Source: Methanothermococcus sp.
GTDB lineage: Archaea; AGJL01; Methanococci; Methanococcales; Methanococcaceae
NCBI RefSeq assembly: GCF_015523155.1
Contig: NZ_WAKW01000003.1
Coordinates: 3,695-67,694 of the forward strand
Length of the DNA: 64,000 nucleotides
Direction of reading: 5' to 3'
The notes under the pieces were generated by a model. The model was not told where the DNA came from. It did no database searches and saw nothing but the letters and a program-made list of their open reading frames with translations. Below, piece by piece: positions 5,051 through 62,987 of the stretch. The translations under genes were made by a program, and so were the position numbers. Every line of letters begins with the position of its first letter. The first letter of the stretch is position 1.

Positions 5051-5258
5051 GTGAATTACTCCCCTCCGTCTTAAAATGGACTCTCCCATCGCAAATCTTT
5101 ATTTGCGAGCTAAAATCCAAAGGATTTTTTAATCCCTTATCTTCGCGAAGCGAGGGGATTAAACAGAATGCTTCGCATTTTGTAGCTCACCAACTTTGTT
5201 GGTGATTTTAAAAATCTTTGATTTTTAAGACGGAAGGGGACTTCTTGCGGAATAAGTT
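5051..5258 (-). mobile_element. Non-autonomous hairpin-array element, copy A (IS200/IS605-end-like termini)
   Basis: Outer inverted repeat 5061-5076/5223-5239 encloses six short hairpins; termini GTGAATTACT and GAAGGGGACTTCTTGCGGAATAAGTT shared with copies at 23886-24215 and 61457-61871. Confidence 0.7.
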
Positions 5259-5924: not shown

Positions 5925-6200
5925 TTATTCTACTGTTTTTAAAATTGTTTTTGTACTACCATCTGATTTTGTATGAACAAATTCTATTAAATCATTAACT
6001 ACCTTTGATAATTCGAGCTCTACGAGTCCTATCAAATCATTGTCAGAATCCAATCTAAAAAATGTACCATCTTTGCTAATGACTGTCCCTTCTAAATGGC
6101 ATCTTCCAAAGTATGCTTCTATATAATCTCCTTCATCGACAGTATCGATATAATTGTATAACTCATTTTCTTCATTAACAACTATTTCAATAATTTTCAT
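5925..6200 (-). CDS. Small conserved hypothetical protein (DUF2097-like)
   Basis: 91-aa acidic ORF with DYIEAYFGRCHLEG; family recalled, not searched. Confidence 0.6.
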   Translation of the reverse strand: MKIIEIVVNEENELYNYIDTVDEGDYIEAYFGRCHLEGTVISKDGTFFRLDSDNDLIGLVELELSKVVNDLIEFVHTKSDGSTKTILKTVE

Positions 6201-7534: not shown

Positions 7535-8611
7535 GTGTTATTTTTGGATTTTTCATATTTACTTAGTAAAAAACATAAAATTTGCAAAAAGATAGAATCT
7601 CTTAATGTAGATTTTGATATTGATAGATACTGGGTTTCACAGGACTTTGAAAATCCATCGTACTGTGTATTTGCCGGTGGAGATGGTAGTTTTAATAAAA
7701 TAGATTATGTTGATTATTGTCTTTATTCAGTAGGTGCTGTATCTTATATAAACAAAGTTGGAGAGAAAATAGAAGAATCCATTTCCTATTGGGATACAGA
7801 TATAATACTACCGTATAGATACATATCAAATAGGCTTAGGCTTTATATGATAAATATGGAGTTAAAAACTGCACTATGGAATTTTAAAAATAAAAATATT
7901 GATTACTATCTATTTGATGGCTCATTGTATTCTCTTTTAATCCAAACCCACACCTATGGAACCATTGTTGAAAATAAAAATGAAGAAAATGAAAAATCTA
8001 TTATAGATTATTATAATGAATACAGTCATGAAATTAAAAGCAGAATTCTTGAAAATATCCATGAAAATCGGCTTATTCCAACTCTAGCCCTAAACAAAAA
8101 TGATAGAGAAAGAATAATATTTGAACAGCTTGAATATATAGTTCTTTTAATAGAGATCCTAAAGAAATATGGTAAAAAAATAATTGGTATCTCAAAAACT
8201 TCAAAAATGAATTTGTATTTTAAAGAATCTAATATTCCTGATATTGCGGTGTTTTCAAAAGTAAACGGAACAGGATATTCAAAACCATTAAATTTAACAG
8301 ATGGAAGAATAAAGGAGATAAATAGAAATGTATATTATACTATAAATCACTTAAAAAAATTTGGGTATAATGTAGATGAAATATACTATCAATTTTTAAG
8401 GTTGGATAGTGGAGCAGGCGTGTTGAACATTACTTCATTTTCAAAATTAAATAATGACTTCTTTTCAAATTTAAATGAAATATCCATTGGAGGATATCCA
8501 TATATATTAAAAAAATCCCATGAAACTGTAAAGATAGGTGATAAAGATATGGAGCTCTGTGCTAAATTATTGGGCATATACAATAAAAGTGATAGAAATT
8601 TAATACTTTAA
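7535..8611 (+). CDS. nurA: NurA-domain nuclease (start uncertain)
   Basis: AGGDGS, LFDGSL, IGISKTS, GYPYILKKSHE motifs. Confidence 0.8.
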   Translation: MLFLDFSYLLSKKHKICKKIESLNVDFDIDRYWVSQDFENPSYCVFAGGDGSFNKIDYVDYCLYSVGAVSYINKVGEKIEESISYWDTDIILPYRYISNRLRLYMINMELKTALWNFKNKNIDYYLFDGSLYSLLIQTHTYGTIVENKNEENEKSIIDYYNEYSHEIKSRILENIHENRLIPTLALNKNDRERIIFEQLEYIVLLIEILKKYGKKIIGISKTSKMNLYFKESNIPDIAVFSKVNGTGYSKPLNLTDGRIKEINRNVYYTINHLKKFGYNVDEIYYQFLRLDSGAGVLNITSFSKLNNDFFSNLNEISIGGYPYILKKSHETVKIGDKDMELCAKLLGIYNKSDRNLIL

Positions 8612-10621: not shown

Positions 10622-10733
10622 ATGTGATAATAATAATGATTGAAAAAATAAAAAAGGATTTTAAAGACTTTAAGGATGAGGCATTTGGAATTTTATTATT
10701 CGGCTCTTATGTAAAAAATGAACATACAAAAAG

Positions 10734-10806
10734 AAGCGACATTGATATATGCTTGATTGGTATTGATAAAAGCGACATTGATATATGCTTGATTGGTATT
10801 GATAAA
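10734..10806 (+). repeat. Exact 36-bp in-frame tandem duplication
   Basis: AAGCGACATTGATATATGCTTGATTGGTATTGATAA occurs at 10734 and 10770; protein reads SDIDICLIGIDK twice. Confidence 0.95.
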
Positions 10807-11047
10807 GACGACTATTTAAAAATTTTAAAAAAACTTGGAGATAAATATGATATAAAAATCTTTGAAGAGCTCCCCCTTTATATAAAAATTGATATTATCA
10901 AAAACCACAAAGTTATTTGGGGAAATGAATTAGAAATTTCAGAGTATTTCTACAAATTCAGAAAAATTTGGAGGGATATGGAAAAAAGGATAAAAGAAAA
11001 CCAGTTTAAAAGTGTGAGGGAAAAATCTTCTTTGCGGAGGAGATTCA

Positions 11048-12632
<1,585 letters not shown>

Positions 12633-17843: not shown

Positions 17844-17905
17844 TTTCGCTTACTTCGTAAGCGAAATGAAGGATTTATAACAAGGGGCTTCCTGTGCTAT
17901 AAGTT
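17844..17905. repeat. Truncated copy D of the hairpin-array element
   Basis: CGCTTACTTCGTAAGCGAAATGAAGGATTT and degenerate terminus AAGGGGCTTCCTGTGCTATAAGTT match copy B. Confidence 0.7.
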
Positions 17906-23885: not shown

Positions 23886-24215
23886 GTGAACTACTGGCCT
23901 TATGGACGAAGCTTCCAGCCTGTCCCGTAGTCTTCACAGGCGTCACTGCACTGTCAGTCTTTGGACCTTTTCATTTAGGTAGCAATAAAATATTTGAGAA
24001 TAACTATATAATTATATAAATTACGGCTTTCATCCTTCCGTAGCGAAGCGGAGGCTACAACTAGAAAAACCTTCGGTTTTTGTTGCTCACTTACTTTGTA
24101 AGCGAAATGAAGGATTTTTTATCCCTTATCTTCGCGAAGCGAGGATATATTACAATCAAACGAAGTTAAAATCCGAAGGATTTATAACAGAAGGGGACTT
24201 CTTGCGGAATAAGTT
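23886..24215 (-). mobile_element. Non-autonomous IS200/IS605-derived element, copy B (hairpin array plus omega-RNA-like end)
   Basis: Reverse complement aligns with 61457-61871; on the minus strand ends GGAAGCTTCGTCCATAAGGCCAGTAGTTCAC. Confidence 0.7.
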
Positions 24216-24237
24216 GAAAATAAAAATTGGTGATTAC

Positions 24238-25356
24238 ATGATAGATGATAAAATAAGAGATATAGTGAAATCTTTTAAAGCCTATGTTCCAGGGAAATCA
24301 AAGGAAGAAATAGCAAGAAATTACGGGATAAACCCAAAAGATATTATAAAATTAGGTTCAAATGAAAACCCATGGGGATGCTCTCCGAAAATAAAGAATG
24401 AAATATTTAAAGAGATTCCAAAAATTTATCAATATCCAGAACCAATAAATCCAATACTCATGGAAGAGCTCTCCAAATTTACAGGAGTTTCAAAGGAGAA
24501 TATTGTTGTTGGTGGAGATGGTGCAGATGAGATAATAGATGCAACAATGAGGATATTGGTAAATAACGGCGATGAGGTAATTATTCCCATACCCACATTT
24601 ACACAGTATAGAATATCCGCATTAATATATGGTGCAAAGGTAAAATATGCAAAATTTGACAAGGAAAAGGATTTTAAATTGGATATTGATAGTATTTTAA
24701 ATAATATAACAGATAAAACAAAAATTATATTTCTATGTACCCCCAATAATCCAACAGGAAATATAATCGATAAAAAGGACATTGAAAAAATCATAAATTC
24801 AACGGACGCATTGGTGGTAATAGACCACGCCTATATAGAATATTCAAAAGAGGAATACGATTTAACAAACTGGGCATTAAAGTATGATAATGTTTTGGTG
24901 TTAAGAACATTTTCAAAGGTATTTGGTTTAGCAGGCCAGAGAATAGGCTACGGTATTACAAGTAAAAAAATCGTAGATTATATGATGAGGGTTAAACCAA
25001 TATTCAGTTTAACAAGATTAAGCCAAATCTGTGCTATTACAGCACTAAGAGATAAGGAATTTTTCAATAAATCAAAAAATGATGGTATAAAGAGCAGAGA
25101 AATATTATACGAAGGATTGAAGAAATTTAAAGAATTAAAAGTATATCCATCTGAGGCAAACTATCTTTTAGTTGAGGTTAAGAATGGTATGAGCTCAGGT
25201 GAGTTTTGTGAAGAACTCTTAAAAAGAGGGGTAATTATAAGAGATTGCAAGTCTTTTGAAGGACTTGATGGAGAGTATGTAAGGGTTGCCATTGGAACTT
25301 TTGAAGAGGATAAAAGATTTTTGGAGATTTTAAGGGATTTAATGATGAATATCTAA
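24238..25356 (+). CDS. hisC: Histidinol-phosphate aminotransferase
   Basis: [37 protein letters not shown]. Confidence 0.93.
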
Positions 25357-32230: not shown

Positions 32231-32343
32231 GCCGAGGTGGCTTAGGCTGGTTATAGCGCTCGGCTCATACGGATATTCCCAAGGTGCTTTTCCTTGGGTC
32301 CTGGGAAACCGAGAGGTCGGGGGTTCAAGTCCCCCCCTCGGCA
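32231..32343 (+). tRNA. tRNA-Met(CAT), probably elongator, with 38-nt intron at 37/38 (32270-32307)
   Basis: GCCGAGG acceptor, CTCGG-CTCATA, BHB motif (CUCA/UGGG central helix, UA|C and AA|A bulges), GGTTCAAGTCC T-arm. Confidence 0.93.
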
Positions 32344-51368: not shown

Positions 51369-51603
51369 TTTATCACCTGCCACTTTTAAAACCAATAATC
51401 CTATAATCAATAATATGGTTGAAAATATAAAATAAATTTTGGATATATATAATGGTTAATAATAAAATAATAAAAATAAAATACTTACAAAATATATTCT
51501 TGGAAAATGTAAAAAAGCGTAATATCCATTATCTGCTGAATAGACTGCTTAAATCGATGATGATAGAACAATACAAAAAAAGCAAAAATTCTTTTAATAA
51601 AAA

Positions 51604-51911
51604 GTGGCTTCCTTGGGGTGGATATAAGCTCCTCCTGCCCATCTACCCCAAGTTCTGCTCGATTCCGCTACCCTGTGAGCGTCGGTGTCCCACCTACCGC
51701 TGCTCCCTTCCGGGCCTGACGGGGTTCGGTGGATTAAGGAGGTTTGCCCACTCCCTACAGAGTGGGTCCCTCCACCGCCTTACCCCACAGGACGAAATGT
51801 CAACACAGAACTTGGGAATGAGCAGGAAGATGCTCATACCGCCCCCAAGTTTTCGGCTCCCGCATGAGACGATTTCGGGTTACAGGGGACGCCTAACCCC
51901 CCAGCCTAGCC
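51604..51911 (-). ncRNA. ffs: Archaeal SRP (7S) RNA
   Basis: GC-rich island; minus strand contains helix-8 GTCAGGCCCGGAAGGGAGCAGC; upstream GAAAAG-TATATATA promoter; 3' end approximate. Confidence 0.92.
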
Positions 51912-52073
51912 AATCTATTTATTTATACTTAATGTATATATACTTTTCTGTTATTTAATACCTTTTAAATTTAATAAAAAATGTTAAATTTGATAAAAAG
52001 GAAAATATAAATATATGGTAATACAAAATGTTTTATATCTATTTTAAAGATTAAATTTATAAAGGAGGATAAT

Positions 52074-60432: not shown

Positions 60433-61368
60433 TTATTTTTTTGTTGTAATTTTTGCTCCATTTTCAGTAATTAAAACTGTATGTTCAGTCTGACTTACCA
60501 TACCATGATTTTTCTCAATTAATGTGGGATAACCATATATGCAACCTGAGCTCATCAAATTTCTTAATCCTGCCCTATATTTTGGGTCTTCATTTGCAAG
60601 CCATCTCTCTGCAAATGGAAGGTGTGGATATTTTTTTTCGATAATCTTTAATATTTTCCTTGCAGAGGGTAATCTAAGAGGTCTTGATTTTATATATTTA
60701 AATATGTGTTTTTCATTTCCATCAAATACCCTTCCAAATCCATCAGTTGCAAAAGGTTCTATTGCCACAATATCTCCAACATCAATATAATCTTTTGATT
60801 TCTCCTTTACGTTAGGGATACTTATCCCAGAATGTAGAACATACTGTTCCATGACATGACCAGATAGGTTTGATATTGGTTTATAACCATAACTCTCAAT
60901 TACTTCCTGTATAATCTCTCCCATTTTCCCAATATTCATTGGTGGTATGATTTCTTTAATTACGGTATATAGGGCATCCTCTGACGCCTTTTTTAAATCC
61001 TTATATGAGTTCGACAAATCAATTGTTATTGCACCGTCTGCTATGTATCCATCAACATGAACTCCGACATCTAACTTTACAACATCATTTTCAGAGAATA
61101 CCTTTTCATCCCCATAAATAGGTGTATAATGTGCTGCAATATCATTTATGGATATATTACAAGGAAATGCCACTTCTCCTCCAAGTTCTCTTGTCTTATT
61201 TTCAACATATTCGGCTACATCGTAAAGTTTGGCATCTGGTTTTATAAGATTTACAGCCTCTTCCATTATTTCAGCGTGGATTTTTCCAGCTTTCATTAGT
61301 TTTTCAATCATTTCAGTTTCTTTATCCTCTTCTTCTACTACTATTCTATTTTTATTACTGATTTCCAT
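60433..61368 (-). CDS. map: Type II methionine aminopeptidase
   Basis: AFPCNIS, AAHYTP, DVGVHVDG.IADGA, NLSGH, IEPFAT, QTEHTV. Confidence 0.95.
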   Translation of the reverse strand: MEISNKNRIVVEEEDKETEMIEKLMKAGKIHAEIMEEAVNLIKPDAKLYDVAEYVENKTRELGGEVAFPCNISINDIAAHYTPIYGDEKVFSENDVVKLDVGVHVDGYIADGAITIDLSNSYKDLKKASEDALYTVIKEIIPPMNIGKMGEIIQEVIESYGYKPISNLSGHVMEQYVLHSGISIPNVKEKSKDYIDVGDIVAIEPFATDGFGRVFDGNEKHIFKYIKSRPLRLPSARKILKIIEKKYPHLPFAERWLANEDPKYRAGLRNLMSSGCIYGYPTLIEKNHGMVSQTEHTVLITENGAKITTKK

Positions 61369-61456
61369 TGTATCATCTATTTTTTATATTTTTTTATTTT
61401 CATAATTAAGTTATATTTTATTTTTTTCATTATATAATTTTATTTTATTTAATTTT

Positions 61457-61871
61457 AACTTATTCCACAAGAAGTCCCTTCTGTTATAAATCCTTCGGAT
61501 TTTAACTTCGTTTGATTGTAATATCTCCTCGCTTCGCGAAGATAAGAATTAAAAAATCCTTCATTTCACTTACAAAGTAAGCAAGCAAAAATCGAAATCT
61601 CCGATTTCGAGCTACAAAACTCGAAGAGTTTTGTTTAAACCGAAGGTTTTTCTAATTAGCATTGAACAATAGTGATGAAAACTTAAAAGTTAGTTTTAGG
61701 TCTCCACTTCGCTACTGGGGGATGAAAGCCGAAAATTATTTATATAACTATTCTCACAATATTTATTGCTACCGAAAAGAAAAGGTAGCCTAGGGCTGGG
61801 ACAGTCCGAAGTGACGCCTGTGGAGACTACGGGACAGGCTGGAAGCTTCGTCCGTAAGGACAGTAATTCAC
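61457..61871 (+). mobile_element. Non-autonomous IS200/IS605-derived element, copy C (hairpin array, TATA, tnpB-tail/omega-RNA-like end)
   Basis: Same termini as copies A and B; 61784-61871 translates GSLGLGQSEVTPVE (TnpB-tail-like) and ends GGAAGCTTCGTCCGTAAGGACAGTAATTCAC. Confidence 0.72.
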
Positions 61872-61886
61872 TGAATATATTCCATT

Positions 61887-62987
61887 TTATGTTCTTTTTA
61901 TAACGATTGTAAGTATATCTTCATCTTCCAATACATGATTAAGACCTACCCTTTGACCAGGATATTTTGCAGATTTTCCCCAAACAAGCGCATACCTAAA
62001 ATTCTTTACAAAATCTCTGTGGAGTTTATTACATATATCCTCAACAGTGGAGCCTTTTAAAATAATAAGTGGCTCGTCAAGGTCAGGTTTTTTACCCTGT
62101 GGTTTTAAATAAACCTTCATAAATCCAAGGGTATTGAAAATATTTTCTTTTAATTCTTCAATATTTATATTTTTATAACCTGAAACAAGAATATGTGGTC
62201 TATCCTTTAAAACTTTTTCAATTCTTTGAATATGTTCTTCATTGGCTAAATCCACCTTGTTCACAACAACAAGAGATGGGATATATACTCGATTTGCACT
62301 AATCACATCTATAAATTGGTCTGTTGTAATATCATCCCTTATTACAATATCTGCGTTATGTATCCTATGTTCGTGTAGAATTGCTACAATTGTTTCTTCG
62401 TCTATGTTTGTTAAAGGAACTGTGGTATTTATATTAATTCCACCTCTGTCTTTTTTTACAATCTTAACATCTGGTGGTCTTTGGTCCAATCTAATACCAA
62501 CATTATAGAGTTCCCTTTCAATTACTGGAATATGTTCAGGTGAGAATACATCAACAACAAGCATTACCAAATCCACATTTCTAATGGCGGCTAATACTTC
62601 ACTACCCCTACCTTTTCCAAAGGCTGCACCAGTAATAATACCTGGGGCATCTAATACTTGTATTTTTGCTCCCTTATATTCTAAAATACCAGGAATTATT
62701 GTTAATGTTGTGAAAGCATAAGCTCCAACTTCTGAATTGGCATTTGTAATTTTGTTTAGAAGTGTAGATTTACCAACAGATGGAAATCCTACAAAAGCTA
62801 CTGTGGCATCCCCTGTTTTTTTAACCGCGTAAGAGTACCCTGTTCCCGTGTTTTTTGGTTTATTTTGCATATCCCTTAATTTTGCAAGTTTTGCTTTTAA
62901 TATGCCAATATGTTTTTGGGTAGCTTTGTTGTACTGTGTATTTTTTATCTCGTCTTCTAATTTTTTTATCTCTTCTTGAATACCCAT
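61887..62987 (-). CDS. DRG/Obg-family GTPase with TGS domain
   Basis: GFPSVGKST, YAFTTL, DAPG, NKVD, SAKYPGQRVG. Confidence 0.92.
   Translation of the reverse strand: MGIQEEIKKLEDEIKNTQYNKATQKHIGILKAKLAKLRDMQNKPKNTGTGYSYAVKKTGDATVAFVGFPSVGKSTLLNKITNANSEVGAYAFTTLTIIPGILEYKGAKIQVLDAPGIITGAAFGKGRGSEVLAAIRNVDLVMLVVDVFSPEHIPVIERELYNVGIRLDQRPPDVKIVKKDRGGININTTVPLTNIDEETIVAILHEHRIHNADIVIRDDITTDQFIDVISANRVYIPSLVVVNKVDLANEEHIQRIEKVLKDRPHILVSGYKNINIEELKENIFNTLGFMKVYLKPQGKKPDLDEPLIILKGSTVEDICNKLHRDFVKNFRYALVWGKSAKYPGQRVGLNHVLEDEDILTIVIKRT

What the first reader, a model, noticed from the sequence alone, without database searches (positions are those of the whole stretch)
61700..61891. Promoter-equipped, TnpB-less omega-RNA-like locus: candidate trans-acting guide RNA system
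After a left-end-like hairpin (CTCCACTTCGCTACTGGGGGATGAAAGCCG) come TTTATATA (61739-61746), a GCTACC/GGTAGC stem starting about 22 bp later, a remnant translating as GLGQSEVTPVE (TnpB C-terminal-tail-like), and an IS200/IS605-type right end finishing TAATTCAC at 61871. In TnpB systems the omega-RNA derives from this region and the next 15-20 nt form the guide, here TGAATATATTCCATTTTATG, which runs antisense into the GTPase stop codon. The nuclease ORF is gone, but the TATA and scaffold survive in two copies with different flanks. Inference: a dispersed set of stand-alone guide RNAs serving a TnpB encoded elsewhere, or a domesticated sRNA.
Basis: partly seen in the sequence, partly recalled or inferred. 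Interest (0 to 1): 0.78.

Follow-up and report, generated by a model that had tools for sequence, protein, structure and literature searches.

The report
TnpB-less mini-transposon keeping a guide-RNA scaffold
The locus is a small, gene-less derivative of an IS200/IS605 transposon in a methanogen that keeps the transposon's own promoter and most of the guide-RNA (omega-RNA) scaffold of the lost TnpB nuclease; this kind of element is already described, and this copy's scaffold is partly degenerate.

Summary
The element is larger than reported: copy A spans 61457-61871 (+). A second copy lies at 24215-23886 (-), and a scaffold-less relative at 5258-5051 (-).

It is a non-autonomous IS200/IS605 element (a PATE). 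It lies 3' of TTTAAC, ends in TTCAC, and has no terminal inverted repeats or target duplication. Its ends match autonomous elements that encode a Y1 TnpA and a TnpB: metagenome locus L129, archaeal locus L131 and Calditerrivibrio plasmid pCALNI01.

The 84 bases before the right end are homologous to the RNA scaffold found at or over the 3' end of tnpB genes. A covariance model built without this window hits 61788-61871 at 54.8 bits and ends exactly at the right end. TTTATATA is the transposon's own left-end promoter, brought next to the scaffold by loss of tnpB.

No tnpA or tnpB occurs in about 84 kb of the contig. Copies A and B depart from an otherwise invariant scaffold core, and copy B is clearly decaying. 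PATEs carrying omega-RNAs for TnpB in trans are already described (Meers 2023), as is the related RAGATH-18 guide RNA (Ren 2024). This is a new member of a known kind.

The parts
61453..61459 (+). TTTTAAC on the left flank. It is a predicted transposon-adjacent motif (TAM, core TTTAAC). Whether AAC belongs to the flank or to the element cannot be decided from the copies.
   Evidence: TTTAAC precedes the left end in copy A, the D-type copy, fragment C, L096, L031/L033, L129, L131, Calditerrivibrio and phage YS40. Copy B has TTCAAC.
61460..61483 (+). Left-end tip and the 5' arm of the left-end hairpin (TTATTCCACAAGAAGTCCCTTCTG).
   Evidence: Homologous to L129 (TTTTCCGCCGGGAAGTCCCCTTCCG), L131 and L096. 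The 23-nt tip occurs 3 times in the window and 0 times in shuffles.
61484..61699 (.). Block of small perfect palindromes with 3-nt loops, lying between the two arms of the left-end hairpin. It is mosaic between copies. It is absent from the compact relative L096 and from TnpB-bearing relatives.
   Evidence: The modules reach 10-25 times genome depth in the source metagenome.
61700..61731 (+).
   Evidence: Aligns with ...GGGAGAAGATGAAAGCCG (L096)...GGGAGGGGATGAGAGGC (L129)...GGGGGATGAGAGGCG (L131)...GGAGATGAA (Calditerrivibrio) and ...GGGGATGAA (YS40).
61730..61746 (+). Purine-rich BRE-like stretch and the archaeal TATA box TTTATATA (61739-61746). This is the element's own left-end promoter.
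   Evidence: The same position carries TTTTTATATA in the archaeal tnpB element L131 and TTTATAG in PATE L033. Bacterial members carry a TTGACA/-10 pair there instead. The function is inferred, not measured.
61768..61789 (+). Predicted 5' hairpin GCUACC/GGUAGC. It starts about 22 nt after the TATA box, at the expected transcription start.
   Evidence: It is identical in L096 and broken in copy B.
61788..61871 (+). Omega-RNA-type scaffold. It comprises the S1 hairpin 61793-61807, P1 5' strand CCUGU 61817-61821, GGAG 61822-61825, ACAGG 61834-61838 (P1 in a shifted register), the short right-end hairpin GUCC-GUAA-GGAC 61850-61861, and the terminal motif TTCAC 61867-61871.
   Evidence: Covariance model R1, built without this window, hits at 54.8 bits with E 1.8e-15. 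It covers model positions 1-119 and ends at 61871.
61793..61825 (+). Stretch reading GLGQSEVTPVE. It corresponds to the C-terminal tail of some TnpBs. In other relatives the same bases are read in another frame or are non-coding.
   Evidence: tblastn of the L129 TnpB matches 61783-61839 in the other frame at 60% identity, E 0.07.
61872..61891 (+). Flank that would form the guide of an omega-RNA. It overlaps the last codon and the stop codon of the GTPase gene on the minus strand.
   Evidence: Position relative to the right end. No TAM-adjacent second match exists in the window.
23886..24215 (-). Copy B (330 bp). It has the same tips and promoter, but its scaffold is decayed: S1 is broken and the 5' hairpin is broken.
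   Evidence: R1 scores it at only 16.9 bits, E 0.0015.
5051..5258 (-). D-type relative (208 bp). It has the same tips, and its left and right hairpin arms pair with each other. It has no promoter and no scaffold.
17846..17905 (-). Fragment consisting of a left end only.

Best explanation
Copy A (61457-61871) is a palindrome-associated transposable element (PATE): a non-autonomous, protein-less derivative of an IS200/IS605-family element of the tnpA-tnpB type.

Shown:
- It keeps the left end and the right end. It lies 3' of TTTAAC, ends in TTCAC, and has no inverted repeats and no target duplication.
- Its ends are homologous to those of elements that encode a Y1 TnpA and a TnpB.
- Its last 84 nt are homologous to the structured RNA found at the 3' end of tnpB in those elements.

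Inferred:
- Loss of the coding region placed the element's own left-end promoter (BRE/TATA at 61730-61746) about 20-50 nt upstream of the scaffold.
- Transcription from about 61768 would therefore give an RNA of roughly 105 nt of scaffold plus a 3' extension copied from the flank (TGAATATATTCC...). That is the format of an omega-RNA.
- A Y1 TnpA encoded elsewhere would move the element as single-stranded DNA.
- A TnpB encoded elsewhere could load the RNA and cut the empty site (TTTAAC + flank), restoring the element after excision. This is the role proposed for omega-RNA-bearing PATEs.

In this copy that last step is doubtful. The scaffold has lost P2 and departs from the invariant GAA.CAGGAAG core, and copy B is plainly decaying.

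The confidence figure refers to the identity and origin of the element, not to present-day guide function.
For: Family and ends:
- One search gave a 36-nt match to Thermus phages YS40/TMA. One search showed a gene-less element there with the same plan and tips.
- Searches showed that the phage element's right part is 91% identical to the 3' end of tnpB in an annotated tnpA+tnpB IS200/IS605 element of Calditerrivibrio pCALNI01. Its left end is TTTTAAC|...CAAGAAGTCTC-hairpin-GAGATGAA and its right end is hairpin-TAGTTCAC|.
- Searches covered three more relatives. L096 is a 197-bp compact relative identical to window 61721-61833. L129 is an autonomous element (Y1_Tnp E 5.6e-42; OrfB_IS605 + Cas12f1-like_TNB) with TTTAAC|...GGGAAGTCCCCTTCCGTAAGGGAGGGGATGA... 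and ...CCCCTTCCGTAAGGGAGGGGTAGTTCAC|. L131 is a tnpB-only element with the same ends and a TATA box, on a contig carrying archaeal RNase P RNA.
- In one search the left and right hairpins resemble each other within each element across the family.

Scaffold:
- In some searches the scaffold structure has 94.7% of cells paired, against 81% when shuffled and 32-48% when slid.
- It has 12 pairs with compensatory changes and conserved G.U pairs.
- The model hits copy A at 54.8 bits and ends exactly at the right end.

Mobility:
- The flanks of different copies and organisms are unrelated.
- A 113-nt block is identical in isolates whose housekeeping genes are only about 81% identical.

Partners and expression:
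- A contig in the source metagenome is collinear with the L129 left end (26/26), tnpA and tnpB, at 2.4 times the genome's depth.
- RNA-seq contigs of a cultured relative and of a metatranscriptome contain the element.

Literature:
- PMC10055086 describes PATEs that encode omega-RNAs used in trans.
- PMC11061315 describes the RAGATH-18 guide RNA of TnpB.
Against: - No tnpA or tnpB occurs in the window or in about 20 kb more of the contig. The tnpA-tnpB contig in the metagenome cannot be assigned to this genome.
- The training set of model R1 was gathered with a 22-nt pattern that copy A contains, so part of the 54.8 bits comes from how the set was chosen.
- Copy A scores below every TnpB-linked or compact relative, which score 68.8-104 bits. 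It lacks helix P2 and has only a 4-bp right-end hairpin. It changes positions invariant in 31 relatives: GGGACAGGCUGGAAGC against ...UCGGAAGCAGGAAGC in L096.
- Its left-end hairpin is split by about 215 nt of palindromes, so TnpA recognition is uncertain.
- RNA evidence comes from assembled contigs only. They also cover the promoter, which suggests read-through, so neither the start nor the end of the RNA is mapped.
- Rfam gives no hit at E <= 10 on this locus.
- Peptide searches with the remnant found nothing.
Confidence: 0.85

Rival explanations
1. Active stand-alone omega-RNA. Copy A makes an RNA that a TnpB encoded elsewhere in the genome loads and uses to cut TTTAAC-flanked targets matching TGAATATATTCC....
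For: - The format is right: promoter, scaffold, and right end followed by flank.
- Several independent PATE lineages keep about 65 nt of scaffold that TnpA does not need. These are YS40, L031/L033, L096, L062 and L116. This argues that the RNA matters to such elements.
- S1 is intact with its conserved G.U pair.
- P1 can still form in a shifted register (CCUGU/ACAGG).
- A tnpA-tnpB contig exists in the source metagenome.
Against: - The invariant core positions are altered and P2 is missing in A and B.
- Copy B is decayed.
- No tnpB lies on the contig.
- No transcript ends are mapped.
- No other target exists in the window.
Confidence: 0.25
2. Dead scar. Copies A and B are decaying remnants. 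Any RNA made from them has no function, and their apparent conservation only reflects recent spread.
For: - Copy B scores 16.9 bits, with S1 and the 5' hairpin broken.
- The A/B subfamily shares derived changes in the invariant core.
- The D-type copy and fragment C have lost the scaffold altogether.
- The 113-nt identity with other species includes the promoter and its spacer. This fits recent transfer better than selection.
Against: - Copy A keeps a perfect promoter, 5' hairpin and S1, and a possible P1.
- At least three A/B-type right ends exist in the metagenome at about genome depth, so the subfamily spread after the core change.
Confidence: 0.5
3. Domesticated regulatory element. The element serves the host as an antisense sRNA against the 3' end of the GTPase mRNA, or as a supplier of an outward promoter or a terminator for neighbouring genes.
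For: - A transcript from 61768 would run antisense over the GTPase stop codon.
- The left tips lie 89 nt from the MetAP start codon and about 22 nt from the hisC start codon.
- There is an outward-facing TTTATAA about 27 nt inside the left tip.
- The D-type copy fills the gap between two convergent genes.
Against: - The copies sit in unrelated, non-orthologous places in different organisms.
- Nothing links the neighbouring genes.
- No expression data bear on this.
Confidence: 0.08
4. An IS607-type element (moved by a serine recombinase), as the RAGATH-18 literature would suggest.
For: The phage relative gives a sub-threshold RAGATH-18 hit of 33.2 bits, E 1.8e-4. Ren et al. tie that motif to 'IS607' TnpBs (PMC11061315).
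Against: - The relatives with matching ends encode Y1 (HUH) TnpA, not a serine recombinase.
- The left and right hairpins and the TAM/terminal-motif layout are of IS200/IS605 type.
- The TAM here is TTTAAC, not AGGAG.
Confidence: 0.03

Closest known systems
PATEs (palindrome-associated transposable elements) of IS200/IS605 that encode omega-RNAs, as noted for Geobacillus stearothermophilus (Meers et al. 2023, PMC10055086)
   Same: - No protein gene.
- Left and right ends with subterminal hairpins.
- Conserved adjacent motif (TAM) and conserved terminal motif.
- An omega-RNA scaffold kept next to the right end.
- Presumed dependence on TnpA and TnpB in trans.
   Different: - The host is archaeal (a methanogen) and the promoter is a BRE/TATA type.
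- The TAM is TTTAAC.
- The left-end hairpin is expanded by a mosaic of small palindromes.
- The scaffold core is altered in this subfamily.
Autonomous and tnpB-only IS200/IS605 elements with the same ends: metagenome loci L129 (tnpA+tnpB) and L131 (archaeal, tnpB only), and Calditerrivibrio nitroreducens pCALNI01 (tnpA+tnpB)
   Same: - TTTAAC on the left flank.
- Left tip ...GAAGTCCCC-hairpin-GATGA.
- Scaffold TAGGGC.GG.AC.GUCCGAA.U.ACGCCUGUGGAG.
- Right hairpin followed by (T)AGTTCAC.
- A promoter directly after the left hairpin.
   Different: - These elements carry tnpA and/or tnpB (1.4-1.8 kb), whereas copy A has none.
- They have a full P2 arm and the GAA.CAGGAAG core.
- Their left and right hairpins are 8 bp long.
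RAGATH-18 RNA (Rfam RF03064), the core of the guide RNA of some TnpBs (Ren et al. 2024, PMC11061315)
   Same: Both have a CCUGUGGAG ... GAUGAAGCAGGAA helix with an internal arm, located beside tnpB. About a third of the reported instances are not next to a TnpB.
   Different: - This locus gives no Rfam hit, and the phage relative is below the family threshold.
- The scaffold here is shorter: about 35 nt lie between CAGGAA and the element end, against a 64-nt 3' flank there.
- The TAM is TTTAAC, against AGGAG there.
- The partner transposase of the relatives is a Y1 TnpA.
Gene-less mini-elements in Thermus phages YS40_Isch and TMA
   Same: They have the same tips, the same order of parts (left hairpin, promoter, 5' hairpin, scaffold, right hairpin, TTCAC), and a similar size (about 230 bp).
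   Different: They sit in bacterial viruses, carry a sigma-70-type promoter, and have an intact GAUGAA.CAGGAA core.

Membership tests
IS200/IS605 family, non-autonomous (PATE) | No terminal inverted repeats and no target-site duplication | tested here: met
   The flanks of copy A, copy B, the D-type copy and L096 show no duplication, and the tips are not inverted repeats.
IS200/IS605 family, non-autonomous (PATE) | Subterminal imperfect palindromes at both ends that resemble each other | tested here: inconclusive
   This is met in the compact relative L096 (CCCCTTCCGTAAGGGAGAAG against CTCCGTCCGTAAGGTCGGAG), in L129, and across the family. In copy A the right hairpin is cut down to 4 bp and the left hairpin arms are separated by about 215 nt.
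IS200/IS605 family, non-autonomous (PATE) | Insertion 3' of a fixed short motif, and a fixed motif at the right tip | tested here: met
   TTTAAC lies on the left (TTCAAC in copy B) and (A/G)TTCAC at the right tip, in all copies and in TnpA/TnpB-bearing relatives.
IS200/IS605 family, non-autonomous (PATE) | Ends homologous to an element that encodes a Y1 (HUH) TnpA | tested here: met
   L129 carries Y1_Tnp at E 5.6e-42 next to TnpB, and its left end is 85% identical to L096 over 53 nt. pCALNI01 is annotated with tnpA and tnpB.
IS200/IS605 family, non-autonomous (PATE) | No coding capacity of its own | tested here: met
   The longest ORF is 45 aa. There were no protein hits.
IS200/IS605 family, non-autonomous (PATE) | A cognate TnpA in the same genome | not testable with these tools
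   Only about 84 kb of the genome could be read, and it holds none. A candidate contig exists in the source metagenome.
TnpB omega-RNA (right-end guide RNA) | A scaffold that abuts the right end, so that the flank supplies the guide | tested here: met
   The model alignment ends at 61871, which is the right boundary shared by four copies.
TnpB omega-RNA (right-end guide RNA) | Homology to the RNA at or over the 3' end of tnpB genes | tested here: met
   R1 scores 54.8 bits, E 1.8e-15. The TnpB-linked members L131, pCALNI01 and L129 score 77-104 bits. Of 70 loci, 35 have an ORF of at least 300 aa beside the motif. Caveat: the training set was selected with a pattern that copy A contains.
TnpB omega-RNA (right-end guide RNA) | The conserved secondary structure of the family is kept | tested here: inconclusive
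   S1 is intact. P1 forms only in a shifted register. P2 is absent. The invariant GAA.CAGGAAG core is altered. The right hairpin is shortened.
TnpB omega-RNA (right-end guide RNA) | Transcribed as a discrete RNA ending a few nt to about 20 nt past the right end | tested here: inconclusive
   The element is present in RNA-seq contigs of a relative and of a metatranscriptome. These are long contigs without mapped ends.
TnpB omega-RNA (right-end guide RNA) | Bound and used by a TnpB | not testable with these tools
   This needs biochemistry or genetics.
Rfam RAGATH-18 (RF03064) | A match to the family model at or above the gathering score of 44.9 bits | tested here: not met
   There is no hit at E <= 10 on 61300-62000. 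The phage relative scores 33.2 bits. There is no hit at gathering score in pCALNI01 or the Geoalkalibacter locus, and none at E <= 0.01 in L096, L129 or L131.
IS607 family | A serine-recombinase TnpA partner | tested here: not met
   The relatives with these ends carry a Y1 TnpA.

The most novel reading that the evidence does not exclude
The compact L096-type element consists of a left end, a promoter, an intact scaffold and a right end in 197 bp. Its 113-nt core is identical in copy A, in at least three cultured relatives with about 81%-identical housekeeping genes, and in several metagenomes. This could be a horizontally spreading, TnpB-less 'guide-RNA-only' parasite that borrows TnpA and TnpB from other elements across species. 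It could also be a guide RNA taken over by the host for a TnpB-derived regulator in Methanococcales. The family's presence in Thermus phages and a bacterial plasmid would then point to cross-domain traffic with promoter replacement.
Probability: 0.15. Interest if true: 0.6.

Novelty: new member of a known kind. Interest (0 to 1): 0.35.

Why it matters
The locus is a clean natural example of how a TnpB transposon shrinks to a mini-element that still couples its own promoter to the guide-RNA scaffold. It places such elements in a methanogenic archaeon.

Three side results may interest people working on TnpB:
- One element family, with the same adjacent motif (TTTAAC) and terminal motif (TTCAC), is found in archaea, a bacterial plasmid and Thermus phages. 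A domain-appropriate promoter sits at the same left-end position in each.
- The conserved 22-nt scaffold segment is read as ...TPVE... by some TnpBs and as ...ACG... by another, and is non-coding in most. This shows that the constraint acts on the RNA and explains two recurrent 'motifs' of TnpB C-termini.
- The scaffold is short (about 100 nt) and comes with a thermophilic TnpB and a predicted TAM, which could be tried as a compact editor.

None of this changes current understanding.

Tried and rejected
- Rfam on the locus, at gathering score and at E <= 10, gave nothing relevant.
- The genome-contig scan with ACGGGACAGGCTGGAAGCTT was wasted. The pattern spans a junction that varies between subfamilies, so it gave only three chance hits.
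- The first metagenome scan gave 0 hits. The viral scan with the left-tip pattern gave only chance hits inside genes.
- All three protein homology searches found nothing: the remnant peptide, a composite of metagenome loose ends, and a six-frame composite.
- phmmer of the 41-aa peptide against 1.8 billion representatives gave one spurious hit. tblastn of the peptide against plasmids gave none.
- blastn of the whole element against plasmids gave no match.
- I considered and dropped a C/D-box sRNA, an RNase P, SRP or rRNA fragment, and a TIR-type MITE. There is no Rfam support for any of them, and the tips are neither inverted repeats nor flanked by duplications.
- Synteny test: the identical 113-nt block in organisms D and E lies on a contig different from those carrying orthologues of the neighbouring genes. 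It is therefore not a conserved orthologous sRNA gene.
- Laying metagenome contigs on L131 added nothing beyond the conserved motif. One read-laying run was lost to a filter.
- A weak model hit at 5973-6034 lies inside a coding region and is taken as chance.
Full report
**Setting.** The window is AT-rich (about 31% GC). It carries an archaeal SRP RNA, methyl-coenzyme M reductase and SepSecS. The host is therefore a methanogen of the Methanococcales type; this is an inference from gene content. The sequence is part of a 91-kb contig of MAG GCA_027074775.1 from a hydrothermal-vent metagenome. The finding lies in the 518-bp gap between a methionine aminopeptidase gene (60433-61368, -) and a GTPase gene (61887-62987, -).

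**Observation.**
- the hairpin-like stretch at 61702-61731
- TTTATATA at 61739-61746
- GCTACC (61768-61773) pairing with GGTAGC (61784-61789)
- the GLGQSEVTPVE frame at 61793-61825
- TAATTCAC ending at 61871
- the 20-nt flank that overlaps the GTPase stop codon

A blast of the gap against the window shows that the repeated unit is larger than reported:
- Copy A spans 61457-61871.
- Copy B spans 24215-23886 (-).
- A 208-bp relative with the same tips but a different interior lies at 5258-5051 (-).
- A left-end fragment lies at 17905-17846 (-).

The right boundary is exact. Four copies share ...TTCAC and then diverge. On the left, every copy is preceded by TTTAAC, except copy B, which has TTCAAC. 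There are no inverted tips and no target duplication.

**Searches that failed.** The following led nowhere:
- Rfam on the locus.
- One badly chosen genome scan, one metagenome scan and two viral scans.
- All three protein homology searches and the exhaustive phmmer search with the short remnant peptide.

Public sequencing runs were more informative. The block 61721-61833 is 113/113 identical in assemblies of several cultured organisms, where it is single-copy. It sits on a different contig from the orthologues of the neighbouring genes, and those orthologues are only about 81% identical to the window. The block therefore belongs to something mobile, not to an orthologous sRNA gene. RNA-seq contigs of one of these organisms and of a metatranscriptome contain it, but they are long contigs without mapped ends.

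**Identification.**
- A sensitive blastn of 61690-61880 against phage genomes matched 36 nt (61791-61826) in Thermus phages YS40_Isch and TMA.
- The phage locus is a gene-less element of about 230 bp with the same plan: TTTTAAC | left tip ...AAAAGTC-hairpin-GGGGATGAA | promoter-like TATAAT | hairpin | TAGGGCTGGAACGGTCCGAATTTACGCCTGTGGAG ... GATGAAACAGGAAGC | hairpin | CAGTTCAC |.
- Rfam gives a sub-threshold RAGATH-18 hit there, 33.2 bits against a gathering score of 44.9. RAGATH-18 is the core of the guide RNA of a group of TnpB nucleases (PMC11061315).
- The phage element matched the 3' end of a tnpB gene in an annotated tnpA+tnpB IS200/IS605 element on Calditerrivibrio plasmid pCALNI01 at 91% identity. 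That element has homologous left and right tips and the TnpB tail ...VGMEQPEFTPVD...MKQEATTSISGW*.

Three of them are decisive:
- L096 (32% GC) is the complete compact element of the cultured relatives. It is 197 bp, is preceded by TTTTAAC, is identical to the window over 61721-61833, and ends ...GGAAGCTCCGTCCGTAAGGTCGGAGTAGTTCAC.
- L129 is an autonomous element with Y1 TnpA (Pfam Y1_Tnp, E 5.6e-42) and TnpB (OrfB_IS605 + Cas12f1-like_TNB). Its left end (TTTAAC|TTTTCCGCCGGGAAGTCCCCTTCCGTAAGGGAGGGGATGAGAGGC) and right end (...GAAGCCCCTTCCGTAAGGGAGGGGTAGTTCAC|) match the methanogen elements, including the hairpin apex CCGTAAGG.
- L131 is a tnpB-only element with the same ends and a TATA box directly after the left hairpin. 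Its contig carries an archaeal RNase P RNA.

Across the family, the left and right hairpins resemble each other within each element. TnpB-bearing members are 1.4-1.8 kb long, and gene-less ones are 170-320 bp. This is the IS200/IS605 architecture. The gene-less members are PATEs.

**The RNA scaffold.**
- I aligned 31 non-redundant scaffolds, holding out copy A, copy B and L096.
- The consensus has a hairpin S1 (GGGCWG/CWGUCC with a conserved G.U pair), a helix P1 (CCUGU/RCAGG) enclosing a variable arm that starts with a 3-bp P2, and the right-end hairpin.
- 94.7% of cells are paired, against 81% after shuffling and 32-48% when partners are slid. Twelve pairs show compensatory changes.
- The conserved G.U pairs mean that the structure works on the + strand as RNA.
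- The 22-nt core is read as ...SE.TPVE... by eight TnpB ORFs and as ...RSHACGD... by the L129 TnpB. It lies downstream of the stop codon in about 25 loci. The constraint is therefore on the RNA, not on the protein.

**Model scores.** Covariance model R1 gave the following:

| Sequence | Bits | Note |
|---|---|---|
| Copy A, 61788-61871 | 54.8 | E 1.8e-15; full model; ends exactly at the right end |
| Copy B | 16.9 | E 0.0015 |
| L096 (held out) | 82.5 | |
| TnpB-linked members L131, pCALNI01, L129 | 77-104 | |

One caveat applies: the training loci were gathered with a pattern that copy A contains, so part of its score comes from how the set was chosen. Independent support comes from pCALNI01, which was not selected by that pattern. 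It also comes from the homology of both tips and the exact coincidence of the model's end with the element boundary.

**The promoter.**
- In every member the stretch just after the left hairpin (…GATGA…) holds a promoter.
- Bacterial members have a sigma-70-type -35/-10 pair there: TTGACA-17-TATATT in pCALNI01 and TTGACA in L129.
- Archaeal members have a BRE/TATA there: L131, L096, L033, copy A and copy B.
- In full-length elements this promoter drives tnpB. In the gene-less derivatives, the deletion places it 20-50 nt from the scaffold.
- The 'promoter-equipped' state is thus the ordinary consequence of an internal deletion that keeps both ends. The start near 61768 is inferred from the TATA spacing, not measured.

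**How intact is this copy?**
- Copy A keeps the promoter, the 5' hairpin, S1 and the linker. These are identical to L096.
- From 61834 onward it follows the copy B subfamily: GGGACAGGCUGGAAGC in place of GGGUCGGAAGCAGGAAGC.
- This removes P2 and changes positions that are invariant in all 31 relatives (GAA.CAGGAAG). P1 can form only in a shifted register (CCUGU/ACAGG). The right hairpin is reduced to 4 bp.
- Its left hairpin arms are separated by about 215 nt of small perfect palindromes.
- Copy B has in addition lost S1 and the 5' hairpin.
- The A/B subfamily did spread after these changes. About three such right ends are seen at genome depth in the source metagenome.

**Partners.**
- tblastn with three TnpBs and a TnpA found no tnpA or tnpB in the window or in about 20 kb more of the contig. 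It found only the remnant at 61783-61839.
- The source metagenome holds a 1560-nt contig at depth 268, against about 110-130 for this genome. It is collinear with the L129 left end (26/26 identical), tnpA and tnpB.
- The same metagenome holds an L096-type right end on a contig of depth 123.
- I cannot tell whether the tnpA-tnpB contig belongs to this genome.
- In the pattern-selected sample, half of the loci with enough upstream sequence (35 of 70) have no long ORF next to the scaffold. Ren et al. likewise report that 36% of RAGATH-18 RNAs are not next to a TnpB (PMC11061315).
- Several independent PATE lineages keep the scaffold although TnpA does not need it. This fits the published view that such RNAs are used by TnpB in trans (PMC10055086).
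- No TAM-adjacent second target of the copy A or copy B guide exists in the window. This is expected if the only target is the element's own empty site.

**Verdict.** It is a PATE, which is a known class. Its 'stand-alone guide RNA' role is the role already proposed for such elements. In this copy the scaffold core is altered, the sister copy is decaying, no partner gene was found nearby, and no transcript ends are known. I put the identity and origin at about 0.85 and present-day guide function of copy A at about 0.25. I rate the finding as a new member of a known kind, of moderate to low interest. The cross-domain spread of the family, the promoter replacement and the two-frame reading of the RNA core are modest extras.

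Noticed in passing
window 5051-5258 (-): A 208-bp relative has the same tips but no promoter or scaffold. Its left and right hairpin arms (GTCCCCTTCCGTCTTAAAA / TTTTAAGACGGAGGGGAG) pair with each other around a string of small palindromes. It fills the whole gap between the convergent cbiC and truA genes, whose stop codons lie 3 nt and 8 nt from its ends.
   Followed up: partly
window 61484-61699 and 24080-24190 (-): A mosaic of perfect palindromes with 3-nt loops (for example AAATCCTTCGGATTT, CTTCGCGAAG, AAACCGAAGGTTT) lies between the arms of the left hairpin. The modules differ between copies and reach 10-25 times genome depth in the source metagenome. Their origin and role are unknown.
   Followed up: partly
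window 61484-61490 (reverse complement TTTATAA) and 24215-24238: A TATA-like box about 27 nt inside the left tip faces outward. The left tips lie 89 nt from the MetAP start codon and about 22 nt from the likely hisC start codon. The element may supply an outward promoter.
   Followed up: no
L012 1420-1510, L129 (rc) 730-830, L131 (rc) 590-690, L096 (rc) 8494-8560: The same left-end position holds a sigma-70-type -35/-10 pair in bacterial members and a BRE/TATA in archaeal members. The promoter seems to have been replaced when the family crossed domains.
   Followed up: partly
loci L014-L142, motif GTCCGAANTNACGCCTGTGGAG: The conserved scaffold core is translated as ...SE.TPVE... by eight TnpB ORFs and as ...RSHACGD... 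by the L129 TnpB. It is non-coding, downstream of the stop codon, in about 25 loci. Two common 'C-terminal motifs' of TnpB are thus two readings of one RNA element.
   Followed up: partly
L011 2866-3098 (Thermus phage YS40_Isch 39965-40197); also phage TMA 84534-84724: Thermus phages carry gene-less members of the same element family. In YS40_Isch the annotated start of the zinc-metallopeptidase-motif CDS (40181) lies inside the element's right end.
   Followed up: partly
L131 (rc) 680-795: A small zinc-ribbon ORF (MDIRIVQCNRCKHKW...CPKCKSPYW...) lies between the left-end promoter and tnpB of the archaeal element.
   Followed up: no
source metagenome run X1, 579-nt contig matching window 61791-61826: A contig at depth 1208, about 10 times this genome, has a minimal scaffold variant (...GGAGGTGCTGTTGCACTCGTTAAAGCGGGAAGCT) and GC-rich flanks. 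It probably comes from another, more abundant organism and may be a tnpB 3' end.
   Followed up: partly
window 51601-51916 (-), 32231-32343 (+), about 10636-11400: Three other features are present: an archaeal SRP RNA (251 bits), a tRNA with an intron of about 40 nt that ARAGORN missed, and a nucleotidyltransferase/HepT-like pair (a candidate toxin-antitoxin module) seen in the gene table of L008.
   Followed up: no
window 5973-6034 (-): A weak hit of model R1 (16.7 bits) lies inside a DUF2097 gene. I take it as chance.
   Followed up: partly
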